Both the position numbers and the translations under genes were made by a program. From the NCBI RefSeq assembly GCF_009914755.1, contig NC_060934.1: DNA of 64,000 nt; one strand, 5' to 3'. Of this stretch, positions 30,556-33,500 are shown one piece after another. The stretch is from the human T2T-CHM13v2.0 reference genome, Homo sapiens. Under the pieces are notes generated by a model that had not been told where the DNA came from, ran no database searches, and was given only the letters and a program-made list of their open reading frames with translations. The stretch's first letter is position 1. Each line of letters opens with the position of its first letter.

Positions 30556-33500
30556 TCAATTCCCACCTATGAGTGAGAATATGCGGTGTTTGGTTTTTTG
30601 TTCTTGCGATAGTTTACTGAGAATGATGATTTCCAATTTCATCCATGTCCCTACAAAGGACATGAACTCATCATTTTTTATGGCTGCATAGTATTCCATG
30701 GTGTATATGTGCCACATTTTCTTAATCCAGTCTATCATTGTTGGACATTTGGGTTGGTTCCAAGTCTTTGCTATTGTGAATAATGCCACAATAAACATAC
30801 GTGTGCACGTGTCTTTATAGCAGCATGATTTATAGTCCTTTGGGTATATACCCAGTAATGGGATGTCTGGGTGAAATGGTATTTCTAGTTCTAGATCCCT
30901 GAGGAATCGCCACGCTGACTTCCACAATGGTTGAACTAGTTTACAGTCCCACCAACAGTGTAAAAGTGTTCCTATTTCTCCACATCCTCTCTAGCACCTG
31001 TTGTTTCCTGACTTTTTAATGATTGCCATTCTAACTGGTGTGAGATGGTATCTCATTGTGGTTTGATTTGCATTTCTCTTATGGCCAGTGATGGTGAGCA
31101 TTTTCTCATGTGTTTTTTGGCTGCATAAATGTCTTCTTTTGAGAAGTGTCTGTTCATGTCCTTCACCCACTTTTTGATGGGGTTGTTTGTTTTTTTCTTG
31201 TAAATTTGTTTGAGTTCATTGTAGATTCTGGATATTAGCTCTTTGTCAGATGAGTAGGTTGCAAAAATTTTCTCCCATTTTGTAGGTTGCCTGTTCACTC
31301 TGATGGTAGTTTCTTTTGCTGTGCAGAAGCTCTTTAGTTTAATTAGATCCCATTTGTCAATTTTGTCTTTTGTTGCCATTGCTTTTGGTGTTTTAGACAT
31401 GAAGTCCTTGCCCATGCCTATGTCCTGAATGGTAATGCCTAGGTTTTCTTCTAGGGTTTTCATGGTTTTAGGTCTAACATTTAAGTCTTTAATCCATCTT
31501 GAATTGATTTTTGTATAAGGTGTAAGGAAGGGAACCAGTTTCAGCTTTCTACCTATGGCTAGCCAGTTTTCCCAGCACCATTTATTATATAGGGAATCCT
31601 TTCCCCATTGCTTGTTTTTGTCAGGTTTGTCAAAGATCAGATAGTTGTAGATATGCGGCATTATTTCTGAGGGCTCTGTTCTGTTCCATTGATCTATATC
31701 TCTGTTTTGATACCAGTACCATGCTGTTTTGGTTACTGTAGCCTTGTAGTATAGTTTGAAGTCAGGTAGTGTGATGCCTCCAGCTTTGTTCTTTTGGCTT
31801 AGGATTGACTTGGCGATGCGGGCTCTTTTTTGGTTCCATATGAACTTTAAAGTAGTTTTTTCCAATTCTGTGAAGAAAGTCATTGGTAGCTTGATGGGGA
31901 TGGCATTGAATCTGCAAATTACCTTGGGCAGTATGGCCATTTTCACGATATTGATTCTTCCTACCCATGAGCATGGAATGTTCTTCCATTTGTTTGTATC
32001 CTCTTTTATTTCATTGAGCAGTGGTTTGTAGTTCTCCTTGAAGAGGTCCTTCACATCCCTTGTAAGTTGGATTCCTAGGTATTTTATTCTCTTTGAAGCA
32101 ATTGTGAATGGGAATTCACTCATGATTTGGCTCTCTGTTTGTCTGTTGTTGGTGTATAAGAATGCTTGTGATTTTTGTACATTGATTTTGTATCCTGAGA
32201 CTTTGCTGAAGTTGCTTATCAGCTTAAGGAGATTTTGGGCTGAGACAATGGGGTTTTCTAGATATACAATCATGTCATCTGCAAACAGGGACAATTTGAC
32301 TTCCTCTTTTCCTAATTGAATACCCTTTATTTCCTTCTCCTGCCTAATTGCCCTGGCCAGAACTTCCAACACTATGTTGAATAGGAGTGGTGAGAGAGGG
32401 CATCCCTGTCTTGTGCCAGTTTTCAAAGGGAATGCTTCCAGTTTTTGCCCATTCAGTATGATATTGGCTGTGGGTTTGTCATAGATAGCTCTTATTATTT
32501 TGAGATACATCCCATCAATACCTAATTTATTGAGAGTTTTTAGCATGAAGGGTTGTTGAATTTTGTCAAAGGCCTTTTCTGCATCTGTTGAGATAATCAT
32601 GTGGTTTTTGTCTTTGGTTCTGTTTATATGCTGGATGACATTTATTGATTTGCGTATATTGAACCAGCCTTGCATCCCAGGGATGAAGCCCACTTGATCA
32701 TGGTGGATAAGCTTTTTGATGTGCTGCTGGATTCGTTTTGCCAGTATTTTATTGAGGATTTTTGCATCAATGTTCATCAAAGATATTGGTCTAAAATTCT
32801 CTTTTTTCGTTGTGTCTCTGCCTGGCTTTGGTATCAGGATGATGCTGCCCTCATAAAATGAGTTAGGAAGGATTCGCTCTTTTTCTTTTTTTCTTTTTTT
32901 TTTTTTTTGAGAGTGCTCTAACTTTATTATCCGTGTGAGAAAGTACATAGTGTGAGGAAGTGAAAGAAAAGAATCCCAAGCTGACTATTGATTGCAATGC
33001 TTCTGGGGCAACGGCACCTCCGTGCTGTGACTTTTTTTGCTGGGCAGCCTGGGATCACTCTACGGATTCCCTCTTTTTCTATTGATTGGAATAGTTTCAG
33101 AAGGAATGGTACCAGTTCCTTCTTGTACCTCTGGTAGAATTTGGCTGTGAATCCATCTGGTCCTGGACTCTTTTTGGTTGGTAAGCTATTGATTATTGCC
33201 ACAATTTCAGCTCCTGTTATTGATCTATTCAGAGATTCAGCTTCTTCCTGGTTTAGTCTTGGGAGAGTGTATGTGTCAAGGAATTTATCCATTTCTTCTA
33301 GATTTTCTAGTTTATTTGCGTAGAGTTGTTCATAGTATTCTCTGATAGTAGTTTGTATTTCTGTGGGATCAGTGGTGATATCCCTTTTATCATTTTTGAT
33401 TGCATCTATTTGATTCTTCTCCCTTTTTTTCTTTATTAGTCTTGCTAGTGGTTTATCAATTTTGTTGATCCTTTCAAAAAACCAGCTCCTGGATTCATTA

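What the first reader, a model, noticed from the sequence alone, without database searches (positions are those of the whole stretch)
32870..33080. 177-bp foreign polyadenylated sequence retro-inserted into L1 ORF2
Seen: minus strand gtagagtgatcccaggctgcccagcaaaaaaagtcacagcacggaggtgccgttgccccagaagcattgcaatcaatagtcagcttgggattc...AATAAAgttagagcactctc-poly(A), with a 17-bp TSD (1 mismatch) made of L1 sequence. It is not Alu, L1 or SVA as far as I can tell, and I cannot name the source. It must be younger than the host L1. Inference: the 3' end of a germline- or embryo-expressed transcript, or a tag of an active source element.
Basis: partly seen in the sequence, partly recalled or inferred. Interest (0 to 1): 0.7.

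Follow-up and report, generated by a model that had tools for sequence, protein, structure and literature searches.

The report
Inverted NLRP7 mRNA scrap inside L1
The 177 bases are a flipped-and-truncated copy of the tail end of the gene NLRP7 (needed by eggs and early embryos), likely pasted by L1 enzymes into a dead L1 element millions of years ago and likely inert, an ordinary kind of genomic fossil.

Summary
The 155 foreign bases are two pieces of the last exon of NLRP7 (chr19): 110 bp in reverse (97% identical; last 29 codons, stop, 20 nt of 3'UTR) joined through a 2-nt overlap to the final 47 nt of the 3'UTR (96%), then a 22-nt non-templated poly(A). 158 nt between the pieces are missing. 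A 17-bp target-site duplication (1 mismatch) flanks it. This is the anatomy of a 5'-inverted (twin-primed) processed pseudogene, a known product of L1 machinery; it is not a transduction or a tag of an active source element. The junction is unique in the genome. Two older NLRP7 retrocopies (chrX, chr9) end at the same poly(A) site. The host is a full-length L1 with broken ORF1 and ORF2 and a short 5'UTR, so the event likely postdates the gibbon split; 3 of 155 bases changed since, so it is likely several million years old and fixed (untested). No sign of function. Side finding: the host L1 and a neighbouring L1 share homogenised tracts, likely ectopic gene conversion, that leave out the insert. 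Interest low.

The parts
33064..33080 (-). 5' copy of the 17-bp target-site duplication (L1 ORF2 sequence); its last 5 bases match 4 of 5 bases of the parent next to the inverted piece (internal priming site, inferred)
32954..33063 (+). Inverted piece, 110 bp = chr19:58017999-58018108; on the window + strand it reads the last 29 codons of NLRP7, the former stop (TGA now TGG) and 20 nt of 3'UTR; 3 differences from the parent (33057, 33043, 33004)
32954..32955 (.). 2-nt microhomology (TC) shared by both pieces at the inversion junction; 158 nt of the parent 3'UTR are missing between the pieces
32909..32955 (-). Non-inverted piece, 47 bp = chr19:58017840-58017794, the end of the NLRP7 3'UTR with AATAAA (32928-32923); 2 differences from the parent (32951, 32933)
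32887..32908 (-). Poly(A) tail, 22 nt; not templated (parent continues with 9 A in 40 nt)
32870..32886 (-). 3' copy of the target-site duplication, 1 mismatch
30338..36550 (-). Host: full-length L1, 908 nt before the ORF1 start, ORF1 and ORF2 each split over several frames, own 14-bp TSD (36551-36564 / 30333-30346, 1 mismatch); likely short-UTR L1PA3 or L1PA2

Best explanation
The insert is a 5'-inverted, truncated copy of the last exon of NLRP7 with a poly(A) tail and target-site duplication inside ORF2 of a broken full-length L1, likely made by L1 twin priming in a germline or early-embryo cell and likely without function today. Steps: (shown) two NLRP7 pieces in opposite orientation, cut at the gene's poly(A) site, tail not templated, 17-bp duplication, microhomologies at both junctions. 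(Inferred) ORF2p from some other, active L1 bound an NLRP7 mRNA and nicked the T-rich strand of the resident L1; that end primed on the poly(A) and copied 47 nt; the second DNA end annealed 158 nt further up the mRNA through a 4-of-5 match and copied 110 nt the other way; the two cDNAs joined at TC. (Inferred) It has drifted neutrally since the great-ape period.
For: One parent at 97/96%; parent gene is NLRP7 (NACHT exon best PDB match 9lq2_A, 1213 bits against 881 for NLRP2; insert translation identical to residues 1009-1037). Orientation and order fit twin priming: the inverted piece starts at its 3'-most mRNA base next to the TSD (model as described in PMC2912911 and PMC12016303). Same poly(A) site in a spliced four-exon chrX copy with a 17-bp TSD and in a chr9 copy. 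5' inversions occur in 3 of 23 polymorphic processed pseudogenes. NLRP7 is expressed in oocytes and embryos. Decay looks neutral: stop codon lost, CpG change.
Against: No exon-exon junction is included, so splicing is not shown for this copy. The nick site reads TTCT/A, not one of the three canonical motifs listed. Both pieces are far shorter than the germline L1 medians (751 and 571 bp) and the 158-nt gap is outside the 46% of cases within 20 bp, though not excluded by them. Age, fixation and lack of expression were not tested on other genomes or RNA.
Confidence: 0.95

Rival explanations
1. 3' transduction: the bases were carried by an L1 or SVA sitting upstream of them at a source locus and mark an active source element.
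For: Poly(A), AATAAA and TSD are common to both routes.
Against: The source is the terminal exon and own poly(A) site of a protein-coding gene, used also by a spliced retrocopy. No second copy of the junction: 1 exact site; 9 sites at 2 mismatches against 3 for the reversed control pattern, none among the NLRP7 hits.
Confidence: 0.01
2. A colinear NLRP7 retrocopy inserted first and was later inverted and deleted at the DNA level.
For: 158-nt loss is on the large side for twin priming.
Against: The inverted piece abuts the intact TSD exactly, with a 4-of-5 match to the parent flank; a later rearrangement would have to land on the TSD boundary by chance.
Confidence: 0.02
3. The insert has been co-opted: the host L1 promoter makes an RNA that ends at the imported poly(A) signal and carries 110 nt antisense to the NLRP7 stop-codon region, damping NLRP7 in eggs or embryos.
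For: Geometry allows it: full-length 5'UTR 3.5 kb upstream on the same strand, antisense piece, then AATAAA; 107 of 110 bases still match NLRP7.
Against: No gene or functional element is annotated here (hub annotation); host 5'UTR has drifted (about 3.8% on its own branch, CpG observed/expected 0.40); six AATAAA lie upstream in the L1; the insert shows ordinary decay.
Confidence: 0.03
4. The insert supplies an ATG (window 32948) for a reverse-transcriptase-only protein from the 3' half of ORF2.
For: The frame is open for 643 codons from inside the insert through ORF2p residue 1107, with the FADD motif.
Against: 5 of 6 similar L1 copies are also stop-free there; host-private changes 14 non-synonymous to 8 synonymous, dN/dS 0.63, p = 0.33; a gap this long among 6-7 breaks has probability 0.29-0.40 (0.03-0.06 if the open stretch 5' of the insert is added); the stretch was likely overwritten by the neighbouring L1; AATAAA follows 20 nt after the ATG.
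Confidence: 0.01

Closest known systems
5'-inverted (twin-primed) processed pseudogenes made by L1 (Ostertag and Kazazian model; PMC2912911, PMC12016303)
   Same: TSD - inverted piece - non-inverted piece - poly(A) - TSD; microhomology at the 5' and inversion junctions; gap between the pieces.
   Different: Very short (110 + 47 nt), wholly within one exon, so gene-model and retrocopy catalogues that need exon junctions would likely miss it; nested in an L1.
Older NLRP7 retrocopies: chrX 129.816 Mb (likely the one named NLRP7P1, name recalled, not confirmed by a call) and chr9 19.568 Mb
   Same: Same parent, same poly(A) site.
   Different: Colinear, 85% and 80% identical to the parent, lacking the 2-nt addition after AATAAA that the chr10 copy shares with today's NLRP7; chrX copy joins four exons.
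POP2 (PYDC2), a functional retrogene of the NLRP2/7 family (PMC3056782)
   Same: Shows that this gene family is retrocopied in the primate germline.
   Different: POP2 keeps a coding PYRIN domain and function; the chr10 piece has no start, promoter or splice acceptor for its 29 codons.
L1/SVA 3' transductions (orphan transductions)
   Same: Unique sequence with poly(A) and TSD.
   Different: Source is a gene's terminal exon, single copy.

Membership tests
L1-mediated processed pseudogene | Matches the exonic 3' end of a parent gene elsewhere | tested here: met
   chr19 last exon of NLRP7, 97/96%
L1-mediated processed pseudogene | Non-templated poly(A) at the parent's cleavage site | tested here: met
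   Parent has 9 A in the next 40 nt; chrX and chr9 copies end at the same site
L1-mediated processed pseudogene | Target-site duplication of 7-20 bp | tested here: met
   17 bp, 1 mismatch; single copy in two empty-site L1s
L1-mediated processed pseudogene | Introns removed | tested here: inconclusive
   Both pieces lie inside the 358-nt last exon; no junction is covered
L1-mediated processed pseudogene | L1 endonuclease site (TTTT/A-like) at the nick | tested here: inconclusive
   Reads TTTTTCT/A: pyrimidine run then A, but not TTTT/A, TTTT/G or TTTC/A
Twin-primed 5' inversion | Upstream mRNA piece reversed, its 3'-most base joined to the 5' TSD | tested here: met
   q1-110 = chr19:58017999-58018108 (+), q109-155 = 58017840-58017794 (-)
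Twin-primed 5' inversion | Microhomology at the 5' junction and at the inversion junction | tested here: met
   1 exact base, 4 of 5, at the 5' junction; 2 nt at the inversion; short matches, weak alone
3' transduction family | Several copies, or a mobile element directly upstream of the source | tested here: not met
   Junction unique; 5 of 5 matches of the exon are the gene, two older retrocopies and the two chr10 pieces
Host = short-UTR L1PA3 / L1PA2 | 5'UTR lacks the 129-bp ZNF93 segment | tested here: met
   908 nt to the ORF1 start, 906-910 in 5 of 7 relatives printed; deletion described
Host = short-UTR L1PA3 / L1PA2 | Best match to the subfamily consensus | not testable with these tools
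   No repeat library held
Fixed (non-polymorphic) insertion | Present in all humans and in great apes | not testable with these tools
   Only one genome, no relatives

The most novel reading that the evidence does not exclude
The insertion built, in one step, an L1-promoter-driven antisense gene against NLRP7: a 3.6-kb RNA ending in 110 nt complementary to the NLRP7 stop-codon region and the gene's own poly(A) signal, which would be switched on when L1s are active in oocytes and early embryos and would tune a maternal-effect gene behind recurrent hydatidiform mole.
Probability: 0.03. Interest if true: 0.75.

Novelty: new member of a known kind. Interest (0 to 1): 0.22.

Why it matters
As found, modestly: it is a third record of NLRP7 mRNA being captured by L1 in the primate germline or embryo, it independently marks the NLRP7 poly(A) site, and it keeps at least one ancestral base that NLRP7 has since changed. 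It is an unannotated 110-bp, 97% look-alike of a clinically sequenced exon; reads from it forced onto an NLRP7-only reference would mimic a stop-loss (TGA to TGG), a synonymous change and a 3'UTR change (inference). The neighbouring L1 pair looks like a clear case of kilobase-scale gene conversion, which can mislead L1 dating.

Tried and rejected
Structured RNA: 6 Rfam matches at E 1.1-9.7, all far below gathering scores. Hairpin or siRNA-type fold-back: the two pieces share only 2 nt of the parent; one fold gave -33.5 kcal/mol without a shuffle control and was not interpreted. Ancestral read-through of the NLRP7 stop: rejected, chrX has TAA and chr9 TGA, so TGG arose in the insert. Selection on the reverse-transcriptase frame: rejected. 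Transduction family: rejected. TSD for the chr9 copy: none found beyond chance 7-mers. Dating the host from best genome hits: weak, since only 40 of 6464-8651 candidates are scored and part of the host is homogenised with its neighbour. A paper naming this copy: 0 papers for NLRP7P1 / NLRP7 pseudogene / NALP7 pseudogene / NLRP7 retrocopy; none of 25 listed mentions NLRP7; one search gave POP2 only. Two papers sought were not held; supplements of retrocopy catalogues were not searched, so the copy may be listed there.

Full report
Observation. On the minus strand a 17-bp word (33080-33064) is followed by 155 non-L1 bases (33063-32909), a 22-nt A-rich tail (32908-32887) and a second copy of the word with one mismatch (32886-32870). 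Two other L1s in the window show the empty site with a single copy of the word. The flanks translate as L1 ORF2p, the break lying near residue 500.

Source. A search of the whole genome with the 155 bases gave 6 matches: itself, two pieces on chr19, two on chrX, one on chr9. Bases 1-110 match chr19:58017999-58018108 on the plus strand (97%); bases 109-155 match 58017794-58017840 on the minus strand (96%). The chr19 gene runs on the minus strand. Its large exon gives a NACHT domain whose best match among 35 solved sequences is NLRP7 (9lq2_A, 1213 bits; NLRP2 881), and the insert read on the window's plus strand equals residues 1009-1037, the C-terminus, of that NLRP7 chain. Both pieces lie in the 358-nt last exon, which has a splice acceptor 43 nt upstream of the copied part.

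Anatomy and mechanism. The order is TSD, reversed upstream piece, forward terminal piece, poly(A), TSD. The reversed piece begins with its 3'-most mRNA base, next to the TSD, whose last five bases match four of five bases of the parent at that point. The two pieces share TC at their junction and 158 nt of 3'UTR between them are absent. The parent continues past the cut with 9 A in 40 nt, so the tail was added to RNA. This is the twin-priming pattern as described in PMC2912911 (passages) and PMC12016303 (passages and section 8); the latter found 5' inversions in 3 of 23 processed pseudogenes and 18% of germline L1s. Shown: the pieces, orientation, junctions, tail, TSD. Inferred: the enzyme, the two priming events and the cell type. 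Against a perfect fit: no exon junction is covered, the nick reads TTCT/A, and the pieces are short and the gap long compared with germline L1 inversions.

Family. The whole last exon finds 5 matches: the gene, chrX (85%), chr9 (80%) and the two chr10 pieces. The chrX copy joins four exons and has a 17-bp TSD; chrX and chr9 copies end at the same poly(A) site as the chr10 copy. The inversion junction occurs once exactly; 9 further sites at two mismatches compare with 3 for the control pattern and none lies at an NLRP7 match. So this is the youngest of three NLRP7 retrocopies found, not a transduction family; DNA search skips very common words and scores few candidates, so more degenerate copies may exist. 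NLRP7 transcripts are present in human oocytes and rise again at day 5 (PMC2447171, passages); mutations cause recurrent hydatidiform moles (PMC2735741, passages). The family has given a functional retrogene before, POP2 (PMC3056782, passages).

Age. Insert and parent differ at 5 of 155 bases. With chrX and chr9 as outgroups, three changes are on the insert (33004, a CpG change; 33043, stop TGA to TGG; 32933), one is on the parent (33057, both outgroups side with the insert) and one is ambiguous (32951). 3 of 155 is 1.9% (95% interval 0.4-5.7%). The host has 908 nt before ORF1, the short form left by a 129-bp deletion that arose in L1PA3 in the great-ape ancestor (PMC5860796 and bioRxiv 10.1101/429613, passages). 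Its own branch is 1.1-1.6% at non-CpG sites against 26 of 29 fetched relatives (3 dropped for short alignment), and 4.7% separates it from its neighbour in the stretch that is not homogenised. The insertion therefore likely falls after the gibbon split and several million years ago; fixation is expected but untested. The subfamily name is an inference.

Function. None evident. The 29 codons have no start or acceptor. Host ORF1 and ORF2 are each split over several frames upstream of the insert. An ATG in the forward piece (32948) is in frame with an open 643-codon stretch covering reverse transcriptase, but 5 of 6 similar L1s are also stop-free there, dN/dS of host-private changes is 0.63 (p = 0.33 against neutrality) and such a gap is not rare (only six of the 39 other hits were fetched). 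The one bold reading left is an L1-driven antisense RNA to NLRP7; geometry allows it, nothing supports it.

Side finding. A second full-length L1 on the same strand lies at 14149-20162 with a different TSD. Host and neighbour differ at 12 of 1761 bases over window 30559-32409, 21 of 1498 over 34149-35649, but 50 of 1069 just 5' of the insert and 12 of 456 just 3' of it; 0 of 5000 permutations gave so low a 1500-base minimum. In the ORF2 3' part they share 10 states found in neither the third L1 nor six relatives, among them a one-base gap that shifts the frame; 33 control pairs share 0.3 on average, at most 3. In the 5' part the count is 3, no more than the maximum of 377 control pairs, so that tract rests on low divergence only. 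A third, inverted L1 (4158-6844) shares 4 states with both and 3 with each. The likely cause is non-allelic gene conversion between near copies, known for transposable elements and dependent on distance (PMC6598467, passages); a shared subfamily could explain some sites but not the patchiness or the shared gap; an assembly error is not excluded without reads. That the tracts leave out the insert may be a heterology block or chance.

Literature. No paper in the held library contains NLRP7P1, NLRP7 pseudogene, NALP7 pseudogene or NLRP7 retrocopy; some searches were seen as search listings only. Two papers were not held, among them the survey of 5'-inverted mRNA retrocopies that I recall, and no supplements were read, so the copy may already be tabulated.

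Verdict. Real, explained, ordinary: a new member of a known kind. Interest 0.22.

Noticed in passing
window 30559-32409 and 34149-35649 against the L1 at 14149-20162: Two independently inserted same-strand L1s 16 kb apart are homogenised in tracts (0.68% and 1.4% against 4.68% beside the insert) and share a frameshifting one-base gap; likely ectopic gene conversion, and a possible substrate for a 16-kb deletion or duplication.
   Followed up: partly
window 4158-6844 (+): 5'-truncated L1 in the opposite orientation; about 0.5-1% from both other L1s around host position 4200-4400 against 3-4% elsewhere, sharing 4 states with both: perhaps a third partner in the conversion.
   Followed up: partly
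window 14149-20162 (-): Full-length L1 with an open ORF1 frame and ORF2 broken in two places; its 5'UTR coincides with the RefSeq enhancer at 19295-20164 (hub annotation).
   Followed up: partly
window 29879-30353 and 36553-40097: The host L1 itself sits inside an older L1 (65-75% identical to it) on the same strand, so the NLRP7 piece is a third-level nested insertion.
   Followed up: partly
L011:5558-5857 (chr9:19567558-19567857): A 300-bp, 80%-identical, tailed copy of the NLRP7 3' end with no clear TSD; an old retrocopy that may be unannotated.
   Followed up: partly
L010:4237-5082 (chrX:129816237-129817082): Spliced four-exon NLRP7 processed pseudogene with 17-bp TSD; one exon is 92% identical to the parent while the others are 79-85%, unexplained.
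   Followed up: partly
window 32948 to 31056 (-): ATG from the NLRP7 3'UTR piece is in frame with the open reverse-transcriptase part of ORF2; tested and found compatible with chance.
   Followed up: yes
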